Shown: positions 7,844 to 26,270 of the stretch, one piece after another
Layout of the letters: each line of letters opens with the position of its first letter
Position numbering within the stretch: the stretch's first letter is position 1
Assembly: GCA_010093605.1 (NCBI GenBank)
Contig: MU004185.1
Coordinates: 1,571,334-1,635,333 of the forward strand
Length of the DNA: 64,000 bases
Direction of reading: 5' to 3'
Origin: Lophium mytilinum
Lineage: Eukaryota
Translations under genes and position numbers: made by a program
Notes under the pieces: model-generated
What the model saw: only the letters and a program-made list of their open reading frames with translations
Database searches by the model: none
Told to the model about the DNA's origin: nothing

Positions 7844-8565
7844 TCCTTCCTGTCGATAGTTAATACGCGTGTGAGCGAGAGCGATACCATTAACTTGTAA
7901 TTTAACATGACCGTTGGATAGGGCTGGGGGAATGCCGCCACTGTCGATGGACTGACAGACTGACCGTTGATGTGCGACACGAGTCTGTGGAACGTGTCAG
8001 GATGATCCGAGGGCACGATCAAACACGGCTGGATGTCTCACATGAACAATAATAGTCGACTGTCGGTAAAGTTGTGTTGTGGGGAACAAAGTATATATAT
8101 CAATGACCAGCCCAGATGTTTTGCGCAGACCCATCTCACATCACACCAGACGTGACCTCAATTTTATATTAGGATGCATCTCAATTTGGTGGCGGCTGGT
8201 GGAGCCGAAAAACTTGCCTCGTCTTCCCCCGTTGATCAATGCTTCTATGGCGCTCCAAAGTCACCGCTAGCCGTGGTGTTGATCCCAGCACCTCCAGCAG
8301 CGCAGAATTGCTGCAACAATCTGGTGTGAATGCTGAGTTCGGTGAAGACGTAGATGAGAAGATGTGTGAACTGCCACTGTGACGCAGCGAAGCCTCCAGC
8401 TTCCTTCACCTCCTTTCGCCTACTGCCTCGCTCCCTACCTACGCCCAGCGTAGAGGGAGCCCCTAACGTCCCATCGCCGAACGGGCCCTTCAAGCCAAAC
8501 ACGACCCAATTGCCGGGTCCCTCGCAGGCGTCGCAGTAAAATGCCCCGTCCAACACAACATAACC

Positions 8566-10246
8566 ATGACAGACGAGTCCCGGTCGTCGCGCAGAGTTGC
8601 GAACTCTGCTCCTAAACCTCCCGCGCCGGATTCCCACGCACCCACGCCGCTATCCACCTCGACCAGCACCACCACGACGGCGCCGCGACGCCCGCCCAAG
8701 GGCAAGACGCAACGGACGCTGGAAGAGACGCTGGCGCCGCGAGCCTCCAACACGGTCGCGCAGGTCCTGATCCCCACGCGCAACAATGCCCGCAAGCGAC
8801 CTCAGCCCTCGCTCGACGCGCCCGCCGGCCGCTCGAAACCACCCACCAAGGTCTCCGTCGCCCAGCCTCACACGGGGCTGCTGCAGACGACAAACGGCGT
8901 GCAGACTGTGCTCCCGCTACGCGACGATGACATTCACTCTGGCCGCTCGACGCCGCAGACCAATGGCGAGGGTAGCCTGCTCGCGGTGCCCTCGACATCA
9001 CGCAACAAACAGGACAAGCGCACGCTGAGGTCGCAAGACGGCGGATCACGTCTGAAGAGCGACCTCAGCATCTACTTCCCCAACTACGACGACATCATTG
9101 CGGACGCGCCCAAGCAGCCCGGTACGCCTCCTTCGCGCTTCCGTCTGAAGTCCGTCACGCTGACAACGCGCAGAATTCCTCGAGCCAGACTCCCCCATCT
9201 ACATCGTCGATGAAGCCCTCAAGACCCCGAAAGCGCGCAATGCGAGCTCGACACCCGCGCCCAGGACCTCGATTAGCCCGGCGAGGTCGCGGAAGAAGTC
9301 GATTACCTCGCTCCCGAATGGCGTCGCCGGAGCCGCGTCCTCGAGTAAACAACCGCCTGATCGCACCTCGACCCTCTACCAAGTCGTCGACTACACCGCC
9401 AGCGACCGCCATGCGCCTAATGACCCTGCGGCCGACCCCCTCGCCGACACGCACTTCTTCACCGCCCACCGCCGCGCCGAGCGCAAGGAGAAGCAGCTCC
9501 GCAACATCGAGAAGGAGCGCGCCATGCACGAGAAAGTCCAGCTCGAGCGCCTCCTCGAGGGGCTGCAGGGCCCGGACTGGCTGAAAGTGATGGGGATAAC
9601 CGGCGTTACGGACGGCGAGCGGAAAGACTGGGAGCCCAAGCGGGACTACTTCGTTGCGGAGGTGAAAGCGCTGGTGGACAAATTCCGCATCTGGAAAGAG
9701 GAGGAGAAGCGGTTGAAGGCTGAGCGTGAAGCCGCTTTACTCGCGAGAGAGGAAGAAGAGGAGGCGAACAGCAACGAGGACGGCGACAGCCCAATTGAGA
9801 GTGCGGCGGTCCCAAATTCTTCGGATGTTGATGCGTGGGCGGCGCTTCAGCTGCAGACTGAGGCTGCGGCGACGGCGTCGTCGTCGCAGCCGCCGACGAA
9901 ACGGAGTCGGAGACCGGCACATCAGAATTCTTCTTTACTTCTGCCGCCCCCGCCTCTGGAGCCTCCGAAGCCCTTTACGAGCTTCTACGCGAAACCGCAT
10001 CTGCGGGAGGCGGCTATGGGGAAGAGTCGGCATGGTCGAAATGTCACGGCGTTCGGGCAGCCACTACCAGAACCACAGGAAGAGGAGTTCGCGCTACCAC
10101 CAGACTACCTAACCGAAGAGGCGTTGAGAGCACATGCGCGAAAGCGAAGGCGGGTGCGCAGAGACCGAGACAGCGTAGGCGGCAGCGCAAGTACCCCAGT
10201 CGGGAAAGGCAAAGAGAAGGCATCGGACGGAAAGGGGGGTGGATAA
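8566..10246 (+). CDS. SAS4: SAS4-family subunit of the SAS histone acetyltransferase complex (intron ~9122-9172)
   Basis: RTLRSQDGGSRLKSDLSIYFPNY, then DPL.D..F..AHRRAERKEKQLRNIEKERAMHEKVQLERLLEGLQGPDWLKVMGITG, typical of the fungal SAS4 domain. Confidence 0.85.
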
Positions 10247-10699
10247 GGGGTGGGTGTGTGGGTGTCTATGTCATCACTTTGGAGTACGGCGTTCTGGCTT
10301 CGGCTCTCGCACTGAGGCCTGGTTTGCTTGAGGGGATATCCCATGGCGTATGGGCGGTCATGTGTTCAAGAGCGTGTGGATGGAGCCACGCTAGCTTTTC
10401 TTATACCTCTATGAGGGAGCGGAGTGCGTGCTCTGCCTCCGCCGGGGGTTGGATCCGGCATTTTGGTATGGTTGCGCTGTATTATAGGTGCTAGCACGGA
10501 TATACTGAGGCGTCGCCTGGGTTGGGCGGTGTGAAAGTACTACTTTTTTAACCCTTTGTTTCGTTCTCTTCTTAGCCTGGGTTTCTGTCTATGATGCTGA
10601 TTACGCGTGCTCTCGTTTTCCTTCTCATGTTTGCCGGAATGCAGGCAAACTCAAGCATCACATCCCAAGCCCCTCGTCAACCCTCTTTCCGCTTTCAAA

Positions 10700-10947
10700 A
10701 CAAACTTCACGATCCACCGTCGAGCAGCCTCCCTTTTCGATCTTCAGACCTCAGCTGTACTAGCTTCCCTCTCATCCGCCCCTCCCGAGCTGTGCGAGTC
10801 GGTAGCCCCGTATAATCAGGTACGTCTCCCCCAAGTTCCGCCTTCAACACATTACGACCACACGCTGACCTTGGTGATGGTACCGTAGTGTCCTCGAACC
10901 TGGTTCAGACGAAAGCTGCCCCTTGGTTTGTATGCTAGGGGTAGCTG
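10700..10947 (+). pseudogene. Possible decayed F-box-like gene fragment
   Basis: SLSSAPPELCESVAPY resembles an F-box start, followed by a canonical-looking intron 10820-10888 (GTACGT...GCTGAC...TAG). The frame closes soon after. Confidence 0.2.
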
Positions 10948-11520
10948 AACGCGGGTATGGGGGTACGCCTGCATATCCGTAGCTTTGGAAGTTGGTCGGG
11001 GTTTGGGTGTGGGTTGGGATAGGTGGCGTCTTGCGGTCGCTGTGTGGGAGTAGGATGGAGGAGGTGTGCCTGGTGGTATTGATACCTTCTCCTTCAGATT
11101 ATTCCAATCTAGTTTGCGATGTTCGTGGGATGGCATGATGATCTGGGGTGTTATCGGGATGATGTTTCCAGGAATCCGATTGGTGGCCTCATGGGAAGGT
11201 ATCCTCGAGAGGAAAGTTTTGTTTGGATATAAAGCAAAAAGGTTGTGCCCGAGCCATGGGATCAGGGTAGAAGTTGGCCGAAACGAGGAGTCTGGTTCTA
11301 GGAACATCGATCGCAGGATGGAAGTCTTGAGAGAAAGGTATGCGAATCTGAGTGTATCTTATGCATGCAGCATGCCTACTGATGCATGTTGCTGACTAAC
11401 AGCTGTGTCCTCCAAGGCTGCCAGCACACCTCGCCGCACACACAACACCAGACCTACACACTGTTTTCCCGCTCTATGGTTAGCATATCATCGAAGTAAG
11501 CTCACAGCCATCTCACCATC

Positions 11521-14385
11521 ATGAGTGAGACTTTCCATTGGAGTCTCCCAGGCCTTGACAGAGCTCACTTCACGGCTCTCGCTAACCTCCTCTCCCTTCG
11601 AAATGGCGGGCAAGTCGAAGATGCCCCGCTGCCCGCCGATTTACTAGAAGAGCACGATGAAGACGAGTCAGATGTGGCTAGCGTTAGAACTGCGAAAGCC
11701 GATCAAATTGCTTATTCTGGGCACGATGGCCTAAAAAGGAAGTTTCTGGATTGCCTAGCTGAATTTGCAGCGAACAAGAAAGGCGGGAGGACTGTTGCAA
11801 CCACAGCTATGAAAGAGTCGGAGGATAGTGTGACCTTATGGATTTCACGGAATGAGGGGTTTCCGGAGCTCGACAGATCAGTTTATGATAACTTGAGCGA
11901 GCTGCTGGGGAGGTTGGCCAATAGCAAGGGTAAGCAAGGTACCAAAAAACCACTTCAGAGAACTCGGAGCGATACTTACGTCTGCATGCCTAGGAGATGA
12001 AATTGCCAAGGAAGAACTCTGGAATGAGATGCTCGCATATCATCAGGACCGTATCCAGAGTGACTACATTCCGAGTTTGAGAGCAGATTTCAAGGCTGTG
12101 GGGAACGATGTGCCGATCGACTACAAGCTCTCAGCTTTGCAGCAGCTGGTTTTCGGCGTCGTGAATCCAGGGCAATCTACAATCAACCACTACAGCAAGC
12201 TTATCACAGCCGCTTACGAGCTGCGAATAACGAAGACAGCCGAGGAAACAATGCACATCTCGCCAAATGCTACCTCGAGAACGAAGAAACTATGGGTGGA
12301 TATATGCCTGCTCGCCAGACTCCGAGTCGCCCTCCAAAAGTTTGTAGAGACTGCACACATACTCCCGAGTTTCCACAATGTCACCATCACTCTGCTCGCC
12401 CGAGGCTCGGTTTCGGTCAAGCCTTCTGAACGCCCTCTAGGCTTGAAGCAGATTTTTGATATCCTCAGGCTCGATCTTGATGACTCTACCGTCAAGAGCG
12501 TGATGAATCAAACGTGTACACTCAACCGAGTTCGTCAAGAATTCTCAACACGACAGAAACAGAAGCTCAACGTCCACGCTGAGGTCCAGATGCTGCTGTT
12601 TCTGTGCAGTAGCGAGCCGGCGAATCGGGCTTCATTGCCATACTTTGGATGCAGCAAGTACTGTTGCTTCATGTGTGCGAGATTACTCAAATTTCATGGC
12701 AAGTTTGCGACGAGAGGATGTCATGGGCGCCTCTTTAGGCCATGGACTGTGCCTGAGGCAGCAGGACTTCGGCTTAGTCAAGCTAACCGATTAGTGAGAA
12801 GCTTGATACAACTACAGGAGGACGTCGAGAAAGAACTGAAGTCCAACTTGAAGAGAATCATACGTCAAAAGAGAACTTCAGCTGTTGGTGGGAGCAGCGT
12901 TCAGGCCTACCAAGCTGGAGACACGCGAAAGCGGTCGGACATCCAGCGTCGAGAGCGTGATGCTGAGCAGCAAAGGGTTACTGAGATGTTCAAAAGGTAA
13001 GCGGATACACATGCCCCATGAAGTTACCAACTAGAGAGCAGTTTCATTACAGGGCTAAACACACTAATAGAATGTCCGTTGAAGATACCCAGTCTGTTTC
13101 CCATAGGTCAACTACCACGCGTTCCTCGGAAAACCCCTACGCGGACGATCATCAAGAGCTCGATGACGAACTTGGCGAGTGCCAGGAATGCCCTAGACTG
13201 ACCTCCCGAACGTGCAGCTTTTGCAACAGAGATCTCTTTTGCAGTGAGATCTGCGAGCAGAAGAGATCCGGACCCCACCTCTACACGTGTACCAAGCGCC
13301 CTCTCACGACCGCCGACTCCCTATACAGAAGTCTTGGCAGTGACGTCCTCCCCACAGACGCGGACGTCCTGGAAGACTTCGGCTTCAACCATCTCCCGTC
13401 TTTCGCCGACCAATCCAACCTCATGGGGCTTTACAAAGGTCTATATCTTTCAGACAAGGTGACCGAAGAGGATCTTCACAATTGGCGCACCGAAGGAACC
13501 CTCGTCGCCAACATCAAGGCCTTCTTCTTCCGCATCCCGGAAGCCTATCGCGGCGGCTACTTCCCCTGGTTCTTGGAGCACACCCACATCCTCGAGAAAC
13601 CCCTATCCGGCAAAGAAGCAACCGAGAAAATGGTCGCCACGTTCTTCGACCAAGCGAATTCCTACCTAACCCCCGAAGACCAGGGCAAGAAGCCGCAAGA
13701 ACTGAAACCGGACGCCAAAGCCGCATGCTACTTTATGCTCGCGGAGGTGCTGCACTCTGCGCATCCGAACCCTGTTGAGGAGAACTGGTACACCTTTGGT
13801 TTTTGCACATGCCTTGACGACTATGAAGAAAGGACACTTGGAGGACTGTATCAGAAGCTCCTCATTGGCGACAAACTCTTCCCCGGTGCTGGGTGGAACC
13901 GTGTTTTCAAGATACCCACATTCACAGAATTCTGGCAAGCGTTCGAGGCAGGCTCCCTCATCGAGCTCATGGACTCCTGTGGTCTGAAAGAGGACCAATC
14001 CTCTTTCCGACACCTCGAGTCTTTCCTCTCCACCCCGGCTTCACACCCGTCTGTGTGGGGTCTGAAACAATTTCTAGTAATTAACCAGCCCGCAGAGCAT
14101 CCACCTAGTCCAGCACTGGCAGTTGATTATGGATTCATGAATTGCAGAAGCTTTGAGGAGACGTGTACGCTGATGGAAATATACAAGCGGCTGCTGCAGC
14201 AAGCAGACCCGCTGGATTTGCAGAAAGCATGCCTAGCTGGGAAGCTGTTCGAATTTGCGGAGAAGTATAGTACGATGAAGCCGGAGTGGAGGAGGTTGAT
14301 GGGGAATGTATATCCGTTGCAGGATTTCAACTTAAGTGCAGGACGAGGGTTGGATGGCCCTAAGACGGGAGGATGTTGGAGATGA
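11521..14385 (+). CDS. OTT_1508-like nucleic-acid deaminase fused to a MYND zinc finger and a C-terminal triple-repeat domain (3 exons, ~910 aa)
   Basis: Intron 11930-11993 (phase 1) and intron 12997-13052 or -13070 (phase 2) join ORFs 11521, 12029 and 13018 in frame. Deaminase motifs HAEVQML and FGCSKYCCFMC; MYND CQEC-x7-CSFC-x5-CSEIC-x7-H-x3-C. Confidence 0.85.
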
Positions 14386-14650
14386 AACCACACCATTAAG
14401 CAAGGATGAGGTCCACCTGACGCAAAAGTCAATTCCTAGCTACCGTTCTCTGAAGGATGGATATGTGAATAACCACGGGCTCTGTTAATGCTTTCATATT
14501 TCAATCCTTTCCGATTCTTCAGCTTCCGGGACTGCAGCTCCATCCCCCGCCTCGCGCACGGTCCGGAATGATGACGGGCGCAACTTTTCAGTTTCCCCCC
14601 AATCGTCCTATGGGATTCTAGTCTAAATGTGCGACCGAAATGCCTCCCAA

Positions 14651-15045
14651 CTAACTAACAAGCAACGACAACCTCTTCAAGCAGGAGTACGCCTAATACA
14701 CCGCCCCAGAGCCCGACCCATCGGGCGGGACACCACTCCAGTTCCCATTCGTAGCAGCAAGCATCCAGTCCATATAAACCAGCATAAAGAAGAAGAAAAG
14801 ACCCACAGCCACCGTAATCCACTTCTGGGAAACATCGCGCGAACCTTCACCGCAGCACACATCCCACTGCATCGAGGTACCAGGCCTGGTCGTGCAGACT
14901 GCGAGGAGCAGGCGAGCACCTGGCGGGACCAGGAAGGCGAGCGTGACGGTGCGAACGGCGGGGATGATGTGCCAGAACGTAATGGCGATTTTGAGGCAGG
15001 CGTGCAGGCCGAGGCCGCAGCCGGCGAACCAGATATTGAGAAAAT
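14651..15045 (-). pseudogene. C-terminal remnant of a multi-pass fungal membrane protein, with a premature stop and interrupted by the MITE
   Basis: ...WITVAVGLFFFFMLVYMDWMLAATNGNWSGVPPDG....VY*AYSCLKRLSLLVS*. The TAG at 14693-14695 sits where W is expected in a DW.L....N..G.P...YW.YF..KRL ending that I recall from uncharacterised fungal proteins. Confidence 0.6.
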
Positions 15046-15395
15046 CAGCGAGGGCAGTAATCCGGCCGCTTGAGTTCGAGGGCCTGGATTGGATTGGATT
15101 GAGACGGTTAATTCTAAGATTGATTAAATTAGAATGCAGGTGGATTGATAAATACTGCCAATACCTCCCAAAGCAGTATATATAGTACGGGGCAAGTGGG
15201 GTAAGAACTGGGGGGTATAGTGGTGGCACGGACCAAAAACAACGCGTAAAAGACGTGTTTTCAATCTACCGATCCGATTGAGATTGATTGAAGATTGAAC
15301 GACCTGTGGATTGATTGATTGGATTGACTTAGGGTGCGGATTAACCGCCCGCCCGATGGACGGATTGAGGTTTGGACGGATTACTGCCCACGCTG
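15046..15395. mobile_element. Non-autonomous hAT-type element (MITE), 350 bp
   Basis: Left end CAGCGAGGGCAGTAATCCGGCC versus reverse complement of right end CAGCGTGGGCAGTAATCCGTCC (20/22). Perfect 8-bp TSD GAGAAAAT at 15038-15045 and 15396-15403. Interior rich in GATT/GGATT repeats. Confidence 0.93.
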
Positions 15396-15452
15396 GAGAA
15401 AATTGCCGCATTCGACCATACTCATTTTCTGATTGTAAGAGACGACAACTTC

Positions 15453-17311
15453 TCACTCATACCTCGCCAAGATTCTCTCGAGAGGCTCCACCACCTCAGA
15501 GTATACTGCCTTCCTCAACTCATCTTCATTGAGATCTTGCTTCGCTGTCCCAAAATCCCCATGGATGCACCGGTACGTCAAATTGTCCAGATCAAGCCCA
15601 CCCTCTTCGAGAGCCTGTTCCTGCCATTTCTGTGCTGTGTTAAATCTTGTAAAATCATTCTCAAGTCCGTCAGGACCGAGGTATTTGGACCAGAAGAGAC
15701 ATGTGTCCATAGACATATTGAACCACATTTCGAGTATAAGGATTCCTAGGGACAGAAGCGACGACTTGGTACGTTTACGGTTCATATTTGATGTTGTTGG
15801 AATAAGCGCTGCAGTTGTTGGTGGTAAGCTGGAGGGATAGAAGGTACTATCCAGAGATAAAGACCCAAGATCGACTTTGCCTTGTTTGTCGCGGAAGAAA
15901 TATATGTCATCCTTCGTCCAATCCTCTTTGAGCCAAGGACAATGATATAGCTGCAGAACAACTTTTGCCATTGTCAGCGCAATCTCCAGTCTTTGCTGAC
16001 GACGTAGTCCGTACGAGGTAGGATTATTGGTGGACAACGGTGTATCTTGACGGATGAGATCCATGAGCGTGACACTATCGTGCCATTGAGTGTCAACAGC
16101 AATTGTTTCCTGGGAGTGATACAACGTATGGCAGTCGTTGCCATCACTTCGCAGGTACCCTAGGTGTGGTTTGATCGGATCATACTCCTTCAAAGCCGCA
16201 CAGAGGTCTTGAATCTCGATTGCATCTTTTGGTACCATGGACGCGCTTGACAATCGTCTGCTTGTTTCTTGTTGAAATGACACATTTCGGCTATTTCGAT
16301 TGGCGTCTATGGTGCCGATACTTGGTGCCCTCGTTGGACTGGTTGCGGCAACGTCGGGAAGGCGAGACGTAAGTGCCATGTTCTCATCCAGCTCCGCCAT
16401 CTCGATATCAGCAGCGTACCAGTCATCCTCTGGGCCGACGAGGGTGTGAGAGTTTGACCACGATCTCAGTTTTCGCGGAAAGTAGACCTTGAGTTTAAGC
16501 GACTCTGTTGTGGTGTTCCCACTGGACGATGAATACAGGTGGGTTTCTGGTAAGAACAATTTCGAAGAATGAATGGAGGAGCAGTCGCACTGTAAGGACC
16601 GGTAGATAGCGTTGTGTAGGCTAGATGCCTGTCTTCGGAAATGTTCAAACAATGCTGGGACAGTGGTGTTTCGCTTACGCCGCGTAGGTTGGAGCCGATC
16701 GCTGTTCCCAAGAAGCTGTTGTAAGTTGCTGTTGTATCGCTCGAGCGTATCCATAAGGCGCGCCCTCCGTTTCCTATCTAGAACGTAGACAACTCTCTTA
16801 TACTCGAAGCTCAGACGTGAGAGTCCTTTCGCCCTGCTTTGGGACCAATGCGGCTAATAGACGTGTTAGTCTTCTGAACGCTTCGGCCAATCTACATGAT
16901 AAATAGTACAGGACTGACCTTGTCGTCGGTAATGCTCAGCTTCTTCCGAATCTTCTCCAAAATGCCGAGAATGGCTGGTACAGTAATCATGTAGCTTTCG
17001 TACTCCTGCTTTCCTGGGAGTCGTCTCTTTAGCTTTCCTTCTAGATCGGAGTTTTTCCACTGAGGATCATCCGGATCATCTAGCATGCATCCCATGTGGT
17101 AGTCAGAGTCGACGACTGTAGACAGTAGATCTTCAATATGTTGACGGAAGAATATCTGCTGTCGGATGAAGTCGTTGAGAAACCCATTGAAGTCAGTTCG
17201 AAACCTAACCCATTCCTGCATGGTCTCCAAGCCTTCTCCGTAGTGTTCCAATGCGCTAATGATGAGTGGGAATGATCCAAGAATGAGACCCGCAATCTCC
17301 ACGCCTGACAT
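15453..17311 (-). CDS. HeLo-like N-terminal domain + DUF7580-type kinase-C-lobe-like protein (2 exons, ~597 aa)
   Basis: Start MSGVEIAGLILGSFPLIISALEHY. Intron 16854-16918 joins in frame to ORF 15453-16754. C-terminal RLEIALTMAKVVLQLYHCPWLKEDWTKDDIYFF...LLSLGILILEMWF...RCI..DF; no intact kinase catalytic motifs seen. Confidence 0.8.
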
Positions 17312-18290
17312 GTTGACAGCAACCCGATGTTTGCCTTTACTTAGTGGTCTGTCAAAGCGTTCCACTATCAACGGAAGTGCTTGTTGGGCTAAGAAAAGAT
17401 GAACAATCAATCAAGATTCAAACACTGCAATAGGAACACAACTAGAGTGACAAAGGAGCGTATGTAAAATTGTCGTGAACGTGGAGTGCAAAGACAAGGC
17501 GGATGTGTAAGTTTGACAGACAAGGCGGGGGTGGATGTTCGACGGGAAGAGCGGAAGGTGACTGGGGGCAAAAGACATGGACAGCAACCTTAGGATTCGA
17601 CGTGGCGCTACGTCTGACCTGTTTGCTCGTACTATGCTACATTTGAGCCTCTTTCTTATCTCTAGAGTAATACGATGACTTCTCAGGTGCAGGGTTTTCA
17701 GCTACACCACGGAAGACGTATATCCACTGACCACTTGGACATCCTAGGGAAGCGCCTTGTACCACCTCGTGGCTTTTCTGCCTTTACCGGTGAGCTTGAT
17801 TTCCGCAATGATGGATTTGGATGCTTCAATCAACACGGTCGCTAACGCGTTCCCGCTAGCATGTCTAAAGGTTTCAGCCAATCCACGTTGCCCGCTTTAT
17901 CTACTCTACGTTGTATCTCCTGAGTTTGAGCGCCCTAGAAGCTGCATTCGATGTCGTAGTCGACGCTAGTAAGAGAAGCGAGAAGAAAAGTATGGTCCGA
18001 GGGCGCCAAGATTAGAGAGCTTTAGCTTATTTTCGAACAATCATACTAGTACGGTATACTAATATCCCTACCTATGTTTGCCCCGCCTTCATCAACTGAA
18101 CGACAGCCATCAAGGGGCCCAATCTCTGCTTCTTAAGAGCCTCACATATAGGAATCGCGCCCCCACCAACCGAGTGGATTGATAATCGAATGCCTCCCGC
18201 TCTACAATAGTCCCAACTAGCATCAGTCATTTCGATATTAGAAACGTCATACTTCATACTTGATCTTTGAAAACTCAAGGAGCCTGTACA

Positions 18291-21200
18291 ATGACAGAGA
18301 CAGCTCAATCGAATTCAACCGTTGCTACTCTATCCTTGCAATGCACTCAGCGCTTCACAAGCATCAAAAAAGTGATTTCCGAATCATCTACATCCAGCGC
18401 ATTGTCTTTGCCTGAGGGCTTCGTGGCGTCTGCCTTCCTAGATGTGGTGGCGCGTTTTCGAATCTGGACAGGAAACATTGGAGCACTTCAACAAGGAAAA
18501 GCTTCTTTGGACTATCGTATTCGGCATACTCATGTCCACAATGAAGTCATGCGACTCCTCGGCCAAGCTGTACTGGCTTTGAGAGATTGTAAGGTCTCCT
18601 TCACGGATAGCATACCTTGACTTAAAGCGCTGACGGCTTTTGCAGTGGCAGCCATTGTGAACGGGAGTAAAGAGCAACAAACGTGGTATGAAGGGGAAGG
18701 CATAGCGACCGAATTCACCGATAGCGATATTGATAGCGACAGCGATAGCAGCTCGGTAGGGTCGGATGGTATACCTACGCCTGAAGAAGAAGACCCGCGG
18801 CTTGTCACTGAATCCAGTCAGTTGGTAGTGATGTTGGGTGATTTGGTCAAAAGTCTCCTTAAACTATCTATCGTTATTCAGAAGTCTTCACGACGAGGTA
18901 AATTTGCGCGTTCTTCCCGCGAAAAGGCATACGACACGACCTTCGATATTTTCCATACTTTGGAGTCCTTTCCGTACGCTGCCAATAACAGACCTCTTCT
19001 CGAAAAATTGGGAAAAGCAAACGCCCAGCGTCGACAATGGTTGTCGTATCGACGACGGCATCGCGATAGGCTTTCCTCCCATGACGGGTCAACGTTCGGT
19101 CACTTAGAAGACTCGAGTACGGAACCAGCGGAGACCAGGAGTCGGCTGCCAACGGATCTTGCCTCCACCACGTCCTCTTCTTCCCATCCAGCGTTCAGTT
19201 ACATGACTGCAGATAACTCGACTACAGCTACAACATTTTACGACAGCAATAGAGGTACTGATCCACAATTCGGTACTGACGAAGGGTCCTCCGAGATCTC
19301 ATTTTCCGCGTCTTCAGTTTCTGGTAGAGAGAAGACGCCTTTGCAGATCCCTAGCCTTCCTTCGGAGGCAGCCTCAGGGGATCCTTTCGAGTGCCCATTA
19401 TGTTTCGGCATCATAGCTGTTCCAGGATTGCAGTCTTGGATGTAAGTGCTTTACCCTGGAAGTGCGATAGTAAGATTGACTATGCCTTAGAAAGCATGTG
19501 CACGCGGATTTGGCTTCCGACGTTTGCACATTTGAGAACTGCGCTTCTCCACTTTTCGAGAATCGGGTTCAATGGTTTGAGCATGAGATGCAAAGCCATC
19601 GGAGAGCGTGGAGCTGCGTTTTCTGTGATCTATGGACAACCAACTTGAACGACCTCGAAAGTCATTTGCAGGACTAACATGCTGACCGTATTCCTACTGG
19701 AGAAATGCGAGCAATAGCACGTCAGGGGAGCCTTCCGCTGCAGCGTCTATCAGCATCTTGCCCGCTCTGCGACTACGACGCAACGCTAAGAAGTCGCTTA
19801 GAGACATCGGACCTTCCCGAGCAGGTCACAATTAAGGCAGAACAACTACGTAGCCACTTAGGACGTCATCTCGAACAGCTGGCTCTCTTTGTTCTTCCTA
19901 AGAGCGCATTGATGCACGATGGTGAGAACGAGGAAGATGATCAATACTCCAATCCGGGAGACTTGGACTCTGGAGAGCAGGAATATGAACCCCGAGGACT
20001 GGACTTCGAGCTCGACGAAAACTCATACGACATTGCAAGTATTCTTGCCTCTCACTCAGAAAGTACGCCCCATGTGTTACCAGTCGCTCCTGCGCTAGCA
20101 TTGGGCTGGCAGCCGCCTCATGATTTCACTCCTCCGGCGACATACTTCGAAACAGACGATGAAAATCTTACTCCTCGGCGGGAAGAATCGACATTTGGAG
20201 GTGATCTCTTTACCCCCGGCTGGGTAAGAGGCTATGATAGGAACAAGGAAGGGTATTGCGCCCGCTGTGAAGTTGGACACTGGGTGAACATCCCAAGCGG
20301 AGAATACGAGTTCCATCTAACCTATTTACACGGCCTGCCGAATACAGGACTCCCCCTTCCGAGGCCTTCTGTCATCCGGGAGGTGAACGACAGCCCAGGA
20401 ACCTGGGAGGCTTTTTGCGATATATGCTCTGGGTGGCGTATTTTGAGGAAAACTAAACGAGGGTGGAACTGGTGGCGACATTGTCTTACTGTACGTTGAC
20501 AAGAGCCCCTTCTCATAACAATGACTAACTATGTTTCTAGGAACATGACGCAATAATCAGTGCTGTTTCCGTACTCTCACCAAGTGCCCCCGTCATAACC
20601 TTCTCCCCTGAAGGGGAAAGGATGAAAGAAGCCATCGCGGGCATACGCAAATCTGATCTTGAAGCGTTGAAAACGTTGATCCAAAGGGATCCAGCCATCA
20701 CAACCCAATATGACAGCGACTCCAAGTACTTACTGCATTATGCAGCTGAAGTTGGGCAATCTGACTTCGTTCGACACATTTTGGAAATAGTGCGCAGCTT
20801 GGACTTGGCTCATGGACTTTCAGGTGTCTTAAATGCACAGACTATGAAAGGATCTACTCCGATGATGCTCGCAGCAGAACAGGGAAATCAAGAAGTAGTG
20901 GAGTGTTTGCTTCGAGAAGGCGCCCGTCTTGACATCGCTTCCAGGGACGGCAAAAACGTCTTAGACTACGCGTCCCATGCCGGGTACACTACGATTGCAG
21001 ACTTACTGATCCGGAACGGCGCTCAGGTCAATGATTCTAGAACATTCCGTAAGGTCTACCTAGGTTGCCTCGATGACCCACTGCTCAGCAAGCCGCATCT
21101 CCAAATTGAACCACGATCAGAGAACCTAACGCTCTCTTGGAACGAATTAATGGACCTTGCGTCACGAAACGACGCCACCGGGATACGAGAATGTCTCAAA

Positions 21201-21992
21201 AAGGACATTGACGTTGAAGACACAGCGAAAGACGGGAGCACTGCTTTGATGATCGCTATGTCGAAAGGAAACACTGATGCGGCCGAAGTTCTGCTTGGAA
21301 ACGGAGCCAACCTGAATGCCACGAACTCGAAAGGATGGACGGCACTGATGACAGCAGTCCGCGATGGCAATCTGTCGGTGGTGGACTTTTTGCTGAGTCA
21401 CGGTGCAGATGCTAACCATCTGTCGCCTGATCACTGGACCGCATTGGCGGAAGCCGCGCAAAGTGGACACATCGATATTTTGAAACTGCTGCTTGAGCAC
21501 GACGCAGATACCGAGGCTCGATCGTCTCATGATTGGACCCCTCTGATGCATGCATGTTATCGAGGCGACAAAGCTTGTGTCGACAAGTTGCTTGATGCAG
21601 GCGCTGAAATGGAGAGCGGGTCTCAGCGCGACGAGACTCCGATGCTCTTAGCTGCTGCTGGAGGACACTTTGAAATAGTTCGAGCTCTTCTTGAAGCGGG
21701 CGGTTTGCCCGATGCTGCTTGGGCGCGCAAGATGGTTCCATCAGGATTGCATGTCCATCAAACGACAGATTTTATTGAACGCACATATCAGCTAGGTTGG
21801 ACACCTCTCATGATAGCTTGTCAAAACGGGCATGAAGATGTAGTACGGCTGTTGTTGGAGGCAGGCGCGAACTGCGAACCACGGAGTCCTTTGAACAGGA
21901 CCGCCATGGAGATTGCAAAGGAGAACGGCCGAACTTCGATTTTAGTTGTTTTGGAGTCTCTTCGCTCGACCAGCTCAAACATCTTAGGATAA
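18291..21992 (+). pseudogene. Multidomain gene (helical N-terminus + C2H2 zinc fingers + Rua1_C/DUF4451 + ankyrin repeats) with one in-frame stop
   Basis: Introns 18589-18645, 19442-19490 and 20491-20540 join four ORFs in frame. Motifs: RFRIWTGNIGA...SLDYR; FECPLC...W.KHV..DL...VCTFENC...WFEHE...H; GDLFTPGWVRG...KEGYC..C; about 10 ankyrin repeats (e.g. GWTALMTAV). In-frame TAA at 19675-19677. Confidence 0.8.
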
Positions 21993-22606: not shown

Positions 22607-24649
22607 CTACTGGATCCCAGCCGTTTTCAAAATCCCGTGAACAATCTTTCCAATTGCCCAGATCTTCTCTTCCTCGAACTTCCTCGCGACTATTTGAACG
22701 CCTACTGGAGCGCCATCATAGATTTCAGCGTCATCTAGCGTAGAGCTTTGGTCAACTTTGGCGTCATGGTTGATGCTCGGTAATACTAACATGCTTTCCA
22801 GTTTTTAGCATCCACGTCATTAAGCGGCGTGTAATTGGGGTCCGCCTTGTCGATGGACTTGTTGGCCTTGGTGACTGGAATTACAACAACGCTGTAGTCC
22901 ATCAAATTGATGACTTCAGTATAAGCTTCAAAATGTCAGCGTCTAGTTTTCGCCCGATCTTCTCAACTCACCTGTGTGATAGAACTTTCCTGGGATAACT
23001 GCGGCATGTGGAGCGACGGGCATGATTACTGCATCAACAAGCTGCCCTTGTAAGCTGTTAGTGGTGACTTCAAGAAAACTCCATCTGGAAGAGTCTCACT
23101 TACCATCATCATCCGCAGTGGAATTCCAATAGTCTGAGTATTTTGCTTCGTAATCTCGTCCTTCGATAGTCAAACTCTGATAAGTAAGAAGTGACATCGG
23201 ATCCTTCAGACGGAAAGTTTCTCGAAGAGGCGCCACGAGAGGTTCTCCAGAGAGATCAAGCTGCCGGTGAATGTCGTGGCCTCCGTCTGCCTTCAGAAAC
23301 GCCAGCTATTTGTCTGTGAGCTTCAAATGATGGTTATCGTGATGTATGGCATCTGCACTTACATGAACCCGTTTAGCAGTCTGCTGATCCGGGGGTTTCC
23401 ATTCTACGACCTGGTGAGAAAACTCCTGTAAGCGCAGTTCCCAAAATCGGACTATGACTGGTTCTTTTACCTGATGGCCAACACTTTTGACAGCATCTAC
23501 CACAAGTCTGAGCCCACGCGCAATTGGTGGTTGAGGGGTAACCACGCCGTCAGTCCACAGGATTCCAAGCTTGAGTGGTTTATTGTCATTGGCTTTTCCA
23601 TCCCCTGCTGCTCTTGAAATAGTCTCTTCAACACGATCCTCCCGCCAAGGCATCGGTACCACGTTCGGATCTCTGAGCCACGGCTGGGTCAGCACGATTG
23701 AACGAAAAACGAGATGTATAGCCTCCAGAGAAGTGCCCATAACCCCGACGGTAGATGCATATGTCGTTTCTCCTGGAATCACGTTCGCCACGTCTCGATA
23801 CGATAACCTCGTGTGAGTTGGTTTGAGAGAGAATATTCCGTTGAACGCTGCCGGAATTCTCAGAGATCCCCCAATATCAGTTCCAAAGCCCACAACACTG
23901 CCTCGCAGAGCTTGAAGGGCTCCTTCTCCTCCAGAAGATCCCCCACATGATAGGTTCTGGTTGTTTGGGTTCAGAGTCTGGCCTATGAGATTGTTGACGG
24001 TTTCACCAAGGAGGAGCGTCTGGGGTAGACTAGTCTTGCAGTACAAAACTGCCCCCAGACTAAGGAGCTCGGACACAACCTGACTGTTGACCTTGTGTAT
24101 GAGCTCCTTGTCCTTGCGGCCTTCATAGGTATCGATCCATCCAATGTATCCCATTGTGGTGTCATTGCCTTCGACGTGGAATTGGTCCTTGAGACTGATT
24201 GGAAGCCCATGGAGTGGCCCCATGGTTTTTCCTTTTTCTTTGTAGTACTCGTCTAGCTCCTTAGCTCTTTCAATAGCCTGCGAAAAGAATATCTCGTGCA
24301 AGCAGTTGTTCTATTTAAGTAAGCTTGAGCAAAGAGGAGCAAGAATGGGGTGCGATCGGCCTACAATCTGATGCGCAATGGCTGCGGCTTTACAGAAGGC
24401 CAGTGTGGTTTCCATCGCACTGAGTTCTCCTCTCTGCACTTTCCCGACAATACAAGTTGCATCTTGCCGTATTATATCGATCTCCTGAGCCTCGAGATAA
24501 TGGTCGAAGAAGGCACCAGTGAGGTCCCTTTGCTTAGCAGCTTTGGCTAGCTCGATTTCCGATAAACGCCATTCGGGAGCTATTTTGGCTAAAGTTTCGC
24601 TCGTCTTCTTTTCGGCCTTAGCCTTCCATGAGTCTTTAGGGACCAGCAT
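22607..24649 (-). CDS. Amidase-signature family enzyme (acetamidase/general amidase-like), multi-exon
   Basis: GPLHGLPISLKDQF, CGGSSGGEGAL and GFGTDIGGSLRIPAAFNG motifs; C-terminal GAPVGVQIVARKFEEEK. Confidence 0.93.
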
Positions 24650-25179
24650 TGCGTTTTTCACTGACGCAGCTGAGATCTCGTAGAAGGTGGGGTTTGTGTG
24701 TATACCTCTGCGAGGTTCAGGCTGGCCTGCAAACACTACCTAGGTACTGCAAACCCTCACTTATTTTCCGGTGAGCAGGTAAACTAAGCGACGAAAACTC
24801 AGTACCGTGGCTGCGCACGCTGCGATAATTGTCTCTCGAATATACCAATGACTGGGAAGATACATTTAATACCACATCATTCCAACGGGGCGGAACCGGG
24901 TGCATCAGGCAATCAGCCTGCATAATGGAGTGATCTCGGCGCTCATTCACATTGGCCTTGCTGGCCACAAGCCAATCTTGATTTATGGTGCCATGAAAAC
25001 GGTCGAATAATTGGTTGACAAGCAATCAGACTGCGGTTCGCTACCCCCGCGGTAGAACATGTTACTTTTGCCAGTCAATTAACGGTCGATGGCAGATAGC
25101 TGTCTACGTTAACAGGAAAGCAAAGATCGCCCTAACTGCCACGATGGCGCGCACTCTAGGCTTTCTATCGCCCATGCAA

Positions 25180-26270
25180 CTGCACCCCCCTAAACACCAA
25201 TCAAGGATTATTATTAATTTTCGCCGATTATTAGCAATTGGGAATAAAATTAACTAATTATTTTAATATTAGCTAATGCTTAATTATTAGGCTAATTAAG
25301 CTAATTAGTAAATAGAGGGTAGTATAAAACTCTAATTACTAATTAGAAGAGGATATTTACCTTCTAAATATCTACTATATCTAAAATATACTTAGCTAAT
25401 TTACCTAGAGATATATATTAGTATTACTTTTAACTTATAGAATATACTATTACCTACTTATAATCTTATACTTCTCTTCTAATTACTAAATAGAGACTAT
25501 CTTATATCCTTTCTTTTAATTACTAATTAGGGGCCTACTTATACTACCTTTTAATTAGTAATTAGGGGGTTATATAGCCTTAAAATTCTAGTAATTAGCT
25601 TATATTCTCTTCTAATTAGTAATTAGAGGTATATATAACCTTAATTATTAGTAATTTTTAGCTTATATAACTCTATTTAGTAATTAGAGCGCTGCCCCCC
25701 TATTAAGTAATTAGCTAATATTAAAATAATTAGTTAATTTTATTTCTAATTAGTAATAATCTATAAAAATTAGTAATATTTCTTAATTAGTATTTAGAGG
25801 TATATATAGAGTATCTCTAGAGTATATAGTCTACTTATATAGTAGGTTTTATATAGTTATATATATATATTTATTATAGTATAATAGGCATATATTATAT
25901 TATAACTTTAAGATTTAAAAATTAATACTATATCTATAAAAGTTTAAACGCCTTATAGGTAACCTTTTTTACCTTTTTAGTCTTTTTAGACTTAGGCGCA
26001 CTTCTAGCCTTTACTATAGGCTGCGGCGGGGCCTTTTCTATCTATAAATTTAATAGCCGCTACTTAGAAATACTTAACTTATCTATTTTATATTTCTTAT
26101 CTTTCTCTAGAATAGTAGTATTTATAAAACTTAAAGATATACGGCCTATAAGGTAAAGAAGAAAAAACTAATAATTAAGGTTATCTATATACTAGGTAAT
26201 AGGGCGTATAAGCCTTTAGAGATAGCTAGTATATTAGGTTTTATATTTTAAGACTGTAATATAATATACG
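25180..26270. mobile_element. RIP-mutated AT-rich transposon relic containing ~100-bp inverted repeats (25186-25284 / 25701-25800)
   Basis: Abrupt drop in GC with many TpA steps. AATAAAATTAACTAATTATTTTAATATTAGCTAAT in the left arm is the exact reverse complement of the right arm; flanking mismatches are mostly C/T and G/A. Confidence 0.85.

What the first reader, a model, noticed from the sequence alone, without database searches (positions are those of the whole stretch)
11521..14385. Spliced fusion of an OTT_1508-like deaminase with a MYND finger: candidate fungal defence or editing enzyme
Seen: three apparently separate ORFs join in frame through two canonical introns (both candidate acceptors of intron 2 keep the frame). 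The product is ~910 aa with intact HAE and CxxC zinc-deaminase motifs followed by a complete MYND finger. Known: OTT_1508-like deaminases are related to polymorphic-toxin deaminases and expanded in fungi, mostly without known substrates; MYND is a protein-interaction module. Inference: a deaminase targeted or gated by its C-terminal half, possibly acting on viral or transposon nucleic acid or as a cell-death effector.
Basis: partly seen in the sequence, partly recalled or inferred. Interest (0 to 1): 0.75.

Follow-up and report, generated by a model that had tools for sequence, protein, structure and literature searches.

The report
Fungal deaminase fused to MYND finger
This is one real, transcribed three-exon fungal gene that joins an OTT_1508-type zinc deaminase to a MYND zinc finger and a conserved helical domain, an arrangement that is widespread in filamentous fungi and was already described by computer analysis in 2011.

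Summary
ATG 11521 to TGA 14385 is one gene of three exons (11521-11929, 11994-12996, 13071-14385) encoding 908 aa.

Exon 2 matches Pfam OTT_1508_deam at 67.7 bits against a cut-off of 27. HAE, GxxK and CxxC are intact and conserved across fused relatives. Exon 3 carries all eight MYND ligands, followed by an acidic all-helical domain of about 350 aa with no Pfam family and no structural match.

The fusion is not new. The public database already holds this locus as one 877-aa protein of Lophium mytilinum, with slightly wrong introns. Of 45 long relatives of exon 3, 39 carry the same deaminase. Iyer et al. (2011) noted MYND-fused fungal OTT_1508 deaminases.

Relatives in Neurospora (OLD-1/2) are reported A-to-I mRNA editors in an antiviral response. 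This gene lacks their adjacent C2H2 partner.

The most likely function is an RNA (less likely DNA) deaminase docked or regulated through MYND. The substrate is untested, and the deaminase fold check was inconclusive.

Verdict: a new member of a known kind, of modest interest.

The parts
11521..11929 (+). Exon 1 (409 nt), starting at ATG 11521. It encodes the acidic N-terminal 136 aa (pI 4.8) and has no Pfam family.
   Evidence: There is an in-frame stop at 11497-11499 just upstream. The start methionine is conserved in at least 90% of the 39 rows of A2. Pfam gives 0 families. pI is.
11930..11993 (+). Intron 1, 64 nt, GTAAGC...CCTAG.
   Evidence: It joins the exons in frame. It is skipped by an X1 contig, with joint 11928->11993 and cut +1. 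Six of 7 orthologues lack the two extra residues of the public model at this point.
11994..12996 (+). Exon 2 (1003 nt). It encodes a helical bundle followed by the OTT_1508-like deaminase domain and a basic linker.
   Evidence: AlphaFold2 model mde7f70c184a9: pLDDT 83.9, helices 2-128, then a strand-helix-strand-helix core. Pfam PF14441 matches.
12572..12757 (+). Match to Pfam OTT_1508_deam (PF14441), over the full length of the profile (1-64 of 64).
   Evidence: E 8.9e-19, 67.7 bits, cut-off 27. Residues 150-295 of exon 2 have pI 10.0.
12575..12583 (+). HAE: the zinc-ligand histidine and the catalytic glutamate.
   Evidence: H and E are invariant in 39 of 39 rows of A2. H, A and E are invariant in 83 of 83 rows of A3.
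12647..12676 (+). GCSK-Y-C-CFMC: the GxxK motif followed by the CxxC zinc ligands.
   Evidence: Found at aa 355-364. In A2 the S and the first C of CxxC are invariant, and G and the second C are at 90% or more. In A3 G, C, S, K and the last C are invariant. GxxK before CxxC is the clade signature given in Table 1 of Iyer 2011.
12997..13070 (+). Intron 2, 74 nt, phase 2, GTAAGC...CTAATAG. If the intron is left unspliced, the frame stops at once (AGG TAA).
   Evidence: It keeps the frame. It is skipped by an X1 contig, with joint 12994->13069 and cut +2. Of 104 database ORFs of exon-2 size, 73 end in ...F-x-(K/R/T/Q)-R at this same point, which suggests the intron position is conserved.
13071..14385 (+). 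Exon 3 (1315 nt including TGA). It encodes a disordered linker, the MYND finger and the helical C-terminal domain.
   Evidence: Model m1f22e26b094c: pLDDT 88.7, pTM 0.78. 855 representative relatives at E<=0.001.
13180..13290 (+). MYND zinc finger with eight ligands (C4-C2HC).
13306..14328 (+). Conserved all-helical domain of about 340 aa, acidic (pI 5.2), with no Pfam family and no convincing structural relative.

Best explanation
**Shown.** Positions 11521-14385 (+) are one transcribed three-exon gene of the ascomycete Lophium mytilinum, encoding a 908-aa protein. Its order is an acidic N-terminus, a helical bundle, a basic OTT_1508-like zinc deaminase with all catalytic and zinc-binding residues, a disordered basic linker, a MYND zinc finger, and a conserved acidic helical domain of about 340 aa. 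It belongs to an old, widespread Pezizomycotina family with this same architecture.

**Inferred.** The enzyme deaminates bases in nucleic acid. The most likely substrate is adenosine in RNA hairpin loops, as reported for the related Neurospora OLD-1/OLD-2 editors. The MYND finger is a module that binds short proline-rich peptides in other proteins. Together with the helical domain, which has no catalytic-type conserved residues, it likely docks the enzyme onto a partner protein or holds it in check. Activity would then be limited to a particular place or condition, such as infection or conflict.

Unlike OLD-1/2, it does not work as a pair with a neighbouring C2H2 zinc-finger gene.

**Confidence.** The gene structure and domain content are near certain (about 0.95). 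The stated confidence applies to the whole mechanism.
For: **Gene structure.**
- In-frame canonical introns.
- X1 contigs skip 11930-11993 and 12997-13070.
- The joined model is 908 aa with no internal stop.
- Five of 7 orthologues (P0151, P0152, P0154, P0155, P0157) run through the junction with the conserved AE-x-F-(K/R/T)-R segment and the MYND finger. P0153 keeps that segment but lacks the finger in the alignment.

**Deaminase.**
- PF14441 at 67.7 bits against a cut-off of 27, and present in 39 of 39 rows of A2.
- In A2, H, E, S and the first C are invariant; A, G and the second C are at 90% or more.
- The clade signatures listed by Iyer 2011 are present: GxxK before CxxC, and a conserved H plus aromatic-x-x-P after strand 4 (CHG...W-T-V-P). 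In A2, W250 and P253 are at 90% or more. In A3, H93 and W100 are invariant and P103 is at 90% or more.
- The domain has pI 10.0.

**MYND.**; UniRef's own name for the locus is 'MYND-type domain-containing protein'.

**Family.**
- 855 representatives match exon 3 at E<=0.001.
- Of the best 150, 45 are at least 600 aa, and 39 of those 45 carry PF14441 upstream of the match.
- Named relatives include Botrytis, Aspergillus, lichen-forming fungi and many Dothideomycetes.

**RNA editing by relatives.** OLD-1/2 are described as A-to-I editors with the same HxE...CxxC centre, preferring hairpin loops with U at -1 and needing unidentified cofactors (PMC12754623, whole text read).
Against: - No activity or substrate is shown for any MYND-fused member.
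- I could not place this protein relative to OLD-1/2, because their sequences and the primary paper were not available.
- The OLD hallmark is absent. An adjacent C2H2 zinc-finger gene with an in-frame TAG is not found: a six-frame scan of the whole window gives no C2H2 motif within about 5 kb of the gene (nearest single motif at 19615-19680), and no C2H2 cluster anywhere.
- On structural grounds, Iyer et al. grouped the OTT_1508 clade with AID/APOBEC and proposed cytosine deamination. That points to C rather than A.
- HAE does not tell A from C deaminases (my own knowledge).
- The fold comparison did not return any deaminase, because the N-terminal helical bundle filled the hit lists. The only solved deaminase seen by sequence is far below significance: T4 dCMP deaminase 1vq2, E 1.1, aligned on HAE.
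- RNA support rests on one run, guessed to be RNA, at depth about 5.
Confidence: 0.4

Rival explanations
1. A DNA cytosine mutator recruited to chromatin. The MYND finger brings the deaminase to chromatin-bound partners, where it makes C-to-U changes in transposons or other selfish DNA. This is the hypothesis of Iyer et al. 2011.
For: - Iyer 2011 (passages) unites the OTT_1508 clade with AID/APOBEC through the strand-4/helix-4 insert.
- The same paper reads MYND (with SIR2 in Magnaporthe MGG_12698) as pointing to chromatin.
- Solved MYND relatives hit by the family profile are chromatin or transcription proteins: ETO/CBFA2T1, DEAF1, SMYD2, ZMYND8.
- One of the 39 A2 members gives a weak APOBEC_N hit, E 0.031.
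Against: - The only experimentally studied fungal members, OLD-1/2, are reported to act on RNA adenosines.
- No SIR2 or other chromatin domain is present here.
- The helical domain is acidic.
- There is no experimental support for DNA mutagenesis by any fungal member in the papers found.
Confidence: 0.2
2. A conflict or cell-death effector. The protein would be a toxin-like deaminase kept inactive by its own C-terminal module, and released on non-self contact or infection to kill the cell, in the manner of heterokaryon incompatibility.
For: - The clade descends from bacterial polymorphic-toxin deaminases, and Iyer 2011 proposes a role in heterokaryon defence.
- OLD-ZAO activation causes severe growth defects and is read as altruistic suicide.
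- A basic catalytic domain next to an acidic C-terminal domain could allow self-masking (this is inference).
- The next gene downstream encodes a DUF7580 protein. I recall this family as accompanying fungal cell-death-type N-terminal domains; that recollection was not tested here.
Against: - Orthologues at 40-63% identity are spread across four classes, as read from the source names. I did not test selection, and I saw no local expansion or second copy in the window.
- Nothing here shows self-masking.
Confidence: 0.12
3. A housekeeping-type deaminase with another substrate (tRNA, a free nucleotide or a small molecule), with MYND serving only for assembly into a complex.
For: - Iyer 2011 predicts a tRNA role for the Leishmania member of the clade.
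- The gene is expressed at low, steady-looking depth in the single run. Contig depth is a poor measure of expression.
Against: - The family is patchy and absent from yeasts according to Iyer 2011, who describe it as 'primarily retained in filamentous forms'. That does not fit a core function.
- The domain is strongly basic, like nucleic-acid enzymes.
Confidence: 0.08
4. Two separate genes: a deaminase ending at TAA 12998-13000 and a MYND protein starting at ATG 13072. On this reading, the joined form would be a minor or artefactual product.
For: - The unspliced frame stops exactly at the exon 2 end, and an ATG opens exon 3 one base after the acceptor.
- Database entries for the MYND-helical module alone exist, for example P0014 (429 aa, an NCBI gene model) and basidiomycete proteins with the finger at their N-terminus.
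- Contigs cannot exclude intron-retaining transcripts.
Against: - A contig joins 12996 to 13071 in frame.
- Only 71 nt separate the stop and the ATG.
- 39 of 45 long relatives are fused.
- Orthologues read through the junction with a conserved segment.
- Many short 'stand-alone' database entries are exon-sized ORF calls from unannotated contigs, not true separate genes.
Confidence: 0.03

Closest known systems
Public gene model of the same locus: 'hypothetical protein BU16DRAFT_481792 [Lophium mytilinum]', UniRef 'MYND-type domain-containing protein' (P0001, 877 aa)
   Same: It has the same start, the same three-exon plan and the same fusion of deaminase and MYND module. It is 99% identical over the matched parts.
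   Different: The public model uses other splice sites. At intron 1 it has two extra residues (KQ). At intron 2 it removes 33 residues, which include the conserved AE-x-F-K-R segment. The X1 contigs and most orthologues support 11930-11993 and 12997-13070 instead, giving 908 aa.
Neurospora crassa OLD-1 / OLD-2 (OTT_1508-like deaminases of the OLD-ZAO antiviral editing module; Honda et al. 2025, seen only through PMC12754623 and PMC13327615)
   Same: They share the Pfam deaminase family and the HxE...CxxC centre. They are fungal and cytoplasmic/nuclear rather than secreted toxins, and are said to need unidentified cofactors.
   Different: The partner gene is missing here: no adjacent C2H2 zinc-finger gene with an in-frame TAG. 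This protein carries its own MYND finger and helical domain. I could not determine whether OLD-1/2 carry these, because their sequences and the primary paper were not available. Editing activity is untested here.
Magnaporthe MGG_12698 and other MYND-fused fungal OTT_1508 deaminases noted by Iyer et al. 2011 (PMC3239186)
   Same: A fungal OTT_1508-clade deaminase with an N-terminal accessory domain and a fused MYND finger.
   Different: The example in the paper also has a SIR2-like deacetylase, which is absent here. The roughly 340-aa helical domain after the finger is not mentioned in the passages I read.
Bacterial OTT_1508-like polymorphic-toxin deaminases (Orientia OTT_1508, Xanthomonas XCV4233 and others; Iyer et al. 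2011)
   Same: They share the catalytic domain family and the signature GxxK-CxxC and aromatic-x-x-P motifs.
   Different: The bacterial proteins are secreted toxin tips with delivery domains, often with immunity genes. This one is an intracellular eukaryotic protein with introns, no delivery domain, and a eukaryotic MYND finger.
MYND domains of ZMYND10, ETO/CBFA2T1, DEAF1, BS69/ZMYND11 and SMYD2 (solved structures)
   Different: The sequence is divergent: Pfam gives 11.2 bits for this protein, below the 22.7 cut-off. What follows the finger is a helical domain unrelated to the SET, TPR or coiled-coil partners of the solved proteins.

Membership tests
OTT_1508-like deaminase (Pfam PF14441; clade of Iyer et al. 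2011) | The sequence matches the family HMM above the curated cut-off. | tested here: met
   67.7 bits, E 8.9e-19, cut-off 27, profile positions 1-64 of 64.
OTT_1508-like deaminase (Pfam PF14441; clade of Iyer et al. 2011) | An HxE motif (zinc ligand plus catalytic Glu) and CxxC zinc ligands. | tested here: met
   HAE at aa 331-333 and CFMC within 355-364. H, E and the first C are invariant, and the second C is at 90% or more, in the 39 rows of A2.
OTT_1508-like deaminase (Pfam PF14441; clade of Iyer et al. 2011) | The clade signatures: GxxK just before CxxC, and a loop after strand 4 with a conserved polar residue (usually H) and aromatic-x-x-P (Table 1 of Iyer 2011). | tested here: met
   GCSK-Y-C-CFMC is present. 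The loop reads ...TRGCHGRLFRPWTVP..., with H and W-T-V-P. In A3, H93 and W100 are invariant and P103 is at 90% or more. In A2, W250 and P253 are at 90% or more.
OTT_1508-like deaminase (Pfam PF14441; clade of Iyer et al. 2011) | A three-dimensional deaminase (CDA) fold. | tested here: inconclusive
   - The model of exon 2 (pLDDT 83.9) shows strand, helix starting at HAE, strand, helix starting at CxxC, then strands and a helix. This order is that of the deaminase core.
- Foldseek (best E 1.7), VIA-align wide and VIA second look listed no deaminase. Their lists were filled by the N-terminal helical bundle (residues 1-130).
- The sequence profile gives only T4 dCMP deaminase 1vq2 at E 1.1, aligned on HAE.
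OTT_1508-like deaminase (Pfam PF14441; clade of Iyer et al. 2011) | Deaminase activity on a nucleic acid. | not testable with these tools
   This needs an enzyme assay.
MYND zinc finger (Pfam PF01753) | Eight zinc ligands with spacing C-x2-C-x7-12-C-x2-C-x4-6-C-x3-C-x7-8-H-x3-C (the spacing rule is recalled from my own knowledge). | tested here: met
   The pattern is found once, at aa 508-544. Seven ligands are invariant and the eighth is at 90% or more in 51 rows.
MYND zinc finger (Pfam PF01753) | The sequence matches the family HMM above the curated cut-off. | tested here: not met
   This protein scores 11.2 bits, E 0.41, against a cut-off of 22.7. Among the 39 deaminase-bearing long relatives, 18 match at E<=0.01 and 10 reach the cut-off. 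28 of the 39 rows of A2 match at E<=1.
MYND zinc finger (Pfam PF01753) | Similarity of the family to solved MYND domains, by profile and by model. | tested here: met
OLD-ZAO RNA-editing module (Neurospora; Honda et al. 2025 as described in PMC12754623) | An OTT_1508-like deaminase gene. | tested here: met
OLD-ZAO RNA-editing module (Neurospora; Honda et al. 2025 as described in PMC12754623) | An adjacent gene for a C2H2 zinc-finger transcription factor interrupted by an editable in-frame TAG. | tested here: not met
   A six-frame scan that reads through stops, for C-x2-4-C-x12-H-x3-5-H over the whole window, finds no C2H2 cluster. The nearest single motif is at 19615-19680, about 5 kb away and beyond another gene. 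The flanking genes are SAS4-like and DUF7580.
OLD-ZAO RNA-editing module (Neurospora; Honda et al. 2025 as described in PMC12754623) | A-to-I editing of mRNA, and induction by virus infection. | not testable with these tools
   No suitable RNA data: the one run is kept as contigs.
OLD-ZAO RNA-editing module (Neurospora; Honda et al. 2025 as described in PMC12754623) | Orthology to OLD-1 or OLD-2 in a tree. | not tested
The primary paper is not held. No Neurospora protein appeared among the named hits.

The most novel reading that the evidence does not exclude
The MYND finger plus the uncharted acidic helical domain may be a built-in sensor. In this reading it replaces the separate partner and cofactors of the Neurospora OLD-ZAO system. 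It would hold the basic deaminase shut until it binds a proline-motif protein, for instance one from a mycovirus or an incoming non-self nucleus, and would then release an RNA-editing or mutagenic burst. The same helical domain, which also occurs without the deaminase (855 representative clusters match exon 3 at 50% identity, with or without it), would then be a new, widespread fungal recognition module. Retention of intron 2, which ends the frame exactly at the domain border, could produce an unguarded deaminase-only form.
Probability: 0.08. Interest if true: 0.7.

Novelty: new member of a known kind. Interest (0 to 1): 0.3.

Why it matters
Fungal OTT_1508-like deaminases have recently become important. 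Two of them in Neurospora are reported to be a third kind of A-to-I mRNA editor, linked to antiviral responses.

The MYND-fused branch confirmed here is widespread: Dothideomycetes, Botrytis, Aspergillus and lichen fungi appear by the names. It is catalytically intact, lacks the ZAO partner, and has no experimental study that I could find.

It is therefore a reasonable candidate for asking how such editors are targeted, and whether they act on RNA or DNA. As a base-modifying enzyme with a modular docking part, it may also interest base-editor engineers.

Two practical by-products:
- The public gene model of this locus needs two splice-site corrections.
- A conserved helical domain of about 340 aa after the MYND finger has neither a Pfam family nor a structural relative.

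None of this is surprising to a specialist, because the architecture was described in 2011.

Tried and rejected
- **RNA runs.** One search listed a single holder, X1, which is not on record as RNA; no RNA holder on record was listed. Its contigs were usable for joints only. They say nothing on transcript ends, strand, level or intron retention.
- **Domain-domain contact.** Complex prediction, with exon 2 residues 1-295 against exon 3 residues 35-435, returned 'no answer' with score 0.00. It is no evidence either way.
- **Third protein search.** I used alignment A1 with lengths 'longer'. It searched only 1653-4720 aa and found nothing. This was a wasted call and is uninformative about fused forms or Neurospora relatives.
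- **ESM Atlas for the helical domain.** Best score 0.85, against 'MYND-type domain-containing protein' clusters of Basidiomycota. That is below the level where such hits count, so it is a lead only.
- **Other attempts.** No whole genome is held for the window, so paralogue counts could not be made. There is no second copy within the window. Earlier scan notes held nothing relevant. The Honda et al. 2025 primary paper is not held.
- **Readings rejected.**
  - Three independent small genes: rejected on the RNA joints and the homologues.
  - The 13053 acceptor: no contig shows it.
  - An OLD-ZAO pair: no C2H2 neighbour.
  - The many 333-336-aa 'proteins' as true stand-alone deaminases: they are exon-sized ORF calls.
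Full report
**Observation**

The region holds three + strand ORFs: 11500-12000, 11897-13000 and 12985-14385. From ATG 11521, which has an in-frame TAA seven codons upstream, a GTAAGC...CCTAG intron at 11930-11993 joins the first two ORFs in frame. From the GTAAGC donor at 12997, acceptors ending at 13052, 13070 and 13106 all keep the frame.

The model 11521-11929 / 11994-12996 / 13071-14385 is 2727 nt, giving 908 aa with no internal stop.

**RNA evidence**

The single sequencing-run search found one holder, X1. It is kept as contigs and is only guessed to be RNA. Laid on 9000-18000, its contigs skip three GT..AG stretches:
- 52 nt in the upstream gene;
- 64 nt at 11930-11993;
- 74 nt at 12997-13070.

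Depth ranges from 207 in the upstream gene, through about 2-6 across this gene, to 0 beyond 16525. That pattern is what RNA gives.

The deaminase exon is therefore spliced in frame to the MYND exon at 12996/13071. The 13053 acceptor was not seen.

Limits of this evidence:
- it is one run and one study;
- there is one contig per joint, at depth about 5;
- the second joint is flagged 'between: not known';
- contigs cannot show transcript ends or exclude intron retention.

**Protein content**

Exon 2 matches Pfam OTT_1508_deam over the whole profile: E 8.9e-19, 67.7 bits, cut-off 27. It carries HAE at aa 331-333 and GCSK-Y-C-CFMC at aa 355-364.

I built alignment A2 from the window's exon 2 and 38 fused relatives. 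These are all deaminase-bearing long hits except P0001, which is the same locus. In A2:
- H, E, S and the first Cys are invariant;
- A, G and the second Cys are at 90% or more;
- W and P of an aromatic-x-x-P motif are also at 90% or more.

I built alignment A3 from the window's deaminase region and 82 of the 104 hits, chosen as those of 300-370 aa. In A3, H, A, E, G, C, S, K, the last Cys, R-G, H-G and W are invariant.

These are the signatures that Table 1 of Iyer et al. 2011 lists for the OTT_1508 clade: GxxK before CxxC, and a loop with H and aromatic-x-x-P (passage).

Exon 3 has all eight MYND ligands with canonical spacing. Pfam scores this finger below its cut-off, at 11.2 bits against 22.7. 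Family-level evidence supports it:
- The ligands are invariant or nearly so in A1, which is the window plus 50 of the 150 listed hits that I picked for near-full coverage.
- The A2 profile hits solved MYND domains, from ZMYND10 at E 2.2e-7 to SMYD2 at 6e-5.
- The AlphaFold2 model superposes on DEAF1 and ZMYND10 MYND domains.

After the finger comes a confidently modelled all-helical domain of about 340 aa: model pLDDT 88.7, pTM 0.78. It has these properties:
- no Pfam family;
- no Foldseek match better than E 1.5;
- acidic, with pI 5.2 against 10.0 for the deaminase domain;
- conserved residues that are aromatic, Gly, Pro and aliphatic, with no polar catalytic-type position.

I read it as a binding or scaffold domain, not an enzyme. 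That is an inference.

**Is the fusion real and general?**

The exon 3 product finds 855 representative proteins at E<=0.001, of which 215 are at E<=1e-30. Of the best 150, 45 are at least 600 aa, and 39 of those 45 carry PF14441 upstream of the match. The six without it are P0008, P0037, P0053, P0056, P0067 and P0126, which are MYND-only or tandem modules.

The top hit, P0001, is this locus. It is held in NCBI and UniRef as one 877-aa protein of Lophium mytilinum, named 'MYND-type domain-containing protein' (taxonomy). That model differs from the RNA contigs at both introns. It carries two extra residues at intron 1, and it drops 33 residues at intron 2. The dropped residues include a segment, AE-x-F-(K/R/T)-R, that six of seven orthologues keep. 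The RNA-based 908-aa model is therefore the better one.

Named relatives come from many Dothideomycetes, Botrytis and other Leotiomycetes, Aspergillus, and lichen-forming fungi. The class assignments other than for Lophium are from my own knowledge.

The 105 shorter hits are not safe evidence for stand-alone modules. Many database entries from unannotated contigs are exon-sized ORF calls. Of 104 'near-length' hits to the deaminase region, 33 are exactly 336 aa. 73 end in ...F-x-(K/R/T/Q)-R, exactly where exon 2 ends here. That also suggests the intron between the deaminase and the MYND module is conserved.

Some stand-alone or repeated modules do exist as eukaryotic gene models: P0014, P0008 and P0037.

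**What is known**

Iyer et al. 2011 (PMC3239186; passages read) defined the clade. They noted its fungal branch with an N-terminal accessory domain and its expansions in filamentous fungi. [quoted passage not shown] They proposed chromatin-directed mutagenesis of selfish elements, or a role in heterokaryon or virus defence.

More recently, Neurospora OLD-1/OLD-2 have been reported as A-to-I mRNA editors. They correct an in-frame UAG in the adjacent C2H2 zinc-finger genes zao-1/2 and drive an antiviral transcriptional response. They favour hairpin loops with U at -1 and seem to need cofactors. My sources are the commentary PMC12754623 (whole text) and passages of PMC13327615 and PMC11169179. 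The primary paper is not held.

Full-text searches for the family name and for MYND with nucleic acid deaminase found no study of the MYND-fused branch beyond Iyer et al.. One search covered the OLD/ZAO gene names and returned only the commentary. Supplements were not consulted.

**Comparison with OLD-ZAO**

The window has no C2H2 cluster. The only C2H2-like motif within 10 kb is at 19615-19680, in a gene with Rua1_C and ankyrin repeats, beyond the DUF7580 gene. The flanking genes are SAS4-like upstream and DUF7580 downstream on the opposite strand. So this is not an OLD-ZAO pair.

I could not establish whether it is close to OLD-1/2 in a tree, or whether those proteins have the MYND module.

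**Mechanism**

Shown:
- one gene and its domain order;
- intact and conserved catalytic and zinc residues;
- a conserved MYND finger;
- a basic catalytic half and an acidic C-terminal half.

Inferred:
- a nucleic-acid deaminase, most likely acting on RNA adenosines by analogy with the only studied fungal members (about 0.4);
- alternatively a DNA cytosine mutator (about 0.2), a gated cell-death effector (about 0.12) or another substrate (about 0.08);
- MYND, known from solved complexes to bind short proline-rich peptides (my own knowledge; compare the titles of 5hda and 9de2), docking or regulating the enzyme together with the helical domain.

The direct test of contact between the halves gave no verdict.

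The fold-level test for a deaminase was inconclusive, because the N-terminal helical bundle filled the hit lists. The modelled order of strands and helices around HAE and CxxC fits the deaminase core. The only solved deaminase seen by sequence is far below significance: 1vq2, E 1.1, aligned on HAE.

**Verdict**

This is a new member of a known, computationally described architecture, of modest interest.

The parts worth noting are:
- the corrected gene model;
- the conserved intron at the domain border;
- the uncharted MYND-associated helical domain;
- the absence of a ZAO-type partner.

Noticed in passing
window 11930-11996 and 12936-13106: The public protein for this locus (P0001, 877 aa) uses different splice sites from those seen in the RNA contigs. 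It lacks a 33-residue segment that six of seven orthologues conserve. The locus annotation could be corrected to 908 aa.
   Followed up: yes
window 8467-10500 (+): The upstream gene has a SAS4 domain (PF15460, E 2.7e-34) and an intron at 9122-9173 that an X1 contig skips. Its contig depth is about 207, roughly 40 times that of the deaminase gene.
   Followed up: partly
window 10880-11338: A contig of similar low depth covers the region upstream of the deaminase start. It ends at a donor-like GGTATGC, and a branch- and acceptor-like CTGACTAACAG follows at 11392-11402. This could be a 5'-UTR intron or a separate small transcript, and remains unresolved.
   Followed up: no
window 15453-17407 (-): The downstream convergent gene encodes a DUF7580 protein (PF24476, E 1.6e-21). 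A further ORF at 16892-17407 has no Pfam match. Contigs cover only part of it.
   Followed up: no
window 18621-21989 (+): ORFs here carry a single C2H2-like motif (19615-19680, running into a stop, perhaps an intron), a Rua1_C regulator domain (E 6.8e-10) and a long ankyrin-repeat array (Ank_2, E 1.9e-67). They may be one gene or two.
   Followed up: no
window 23306-24739 (-) and 24001-26000: There is an amidase-family gene (PF01425, E 1.8e-69). Next to it is the most AT-rich stretch of the window, at GC 0.384 against about 0.5 elsewhere.
   Followed up: no
database hits P0184-P0287: Many 'proteins' of 333-336 aa from unannotated ENA, JGI or Logan contigs are exon 2 equivalents of fused genes: they start just after intron 1 and end at ...AEMF(K/R)R. 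Stand-alone counts for fungal families taken from such collections are inflated.
   Followed up: partly
P0008 (1186 aa, Leucocoprinus birnbaumii), P0037 (720 aa, Laetiporus sulphureus): Basidiomycete proteins carry the MYND-plus-helical module without a deaminase. In P0008 it occurs in tandem (three MYND stretches, four matched stretches).
   Followed up: no
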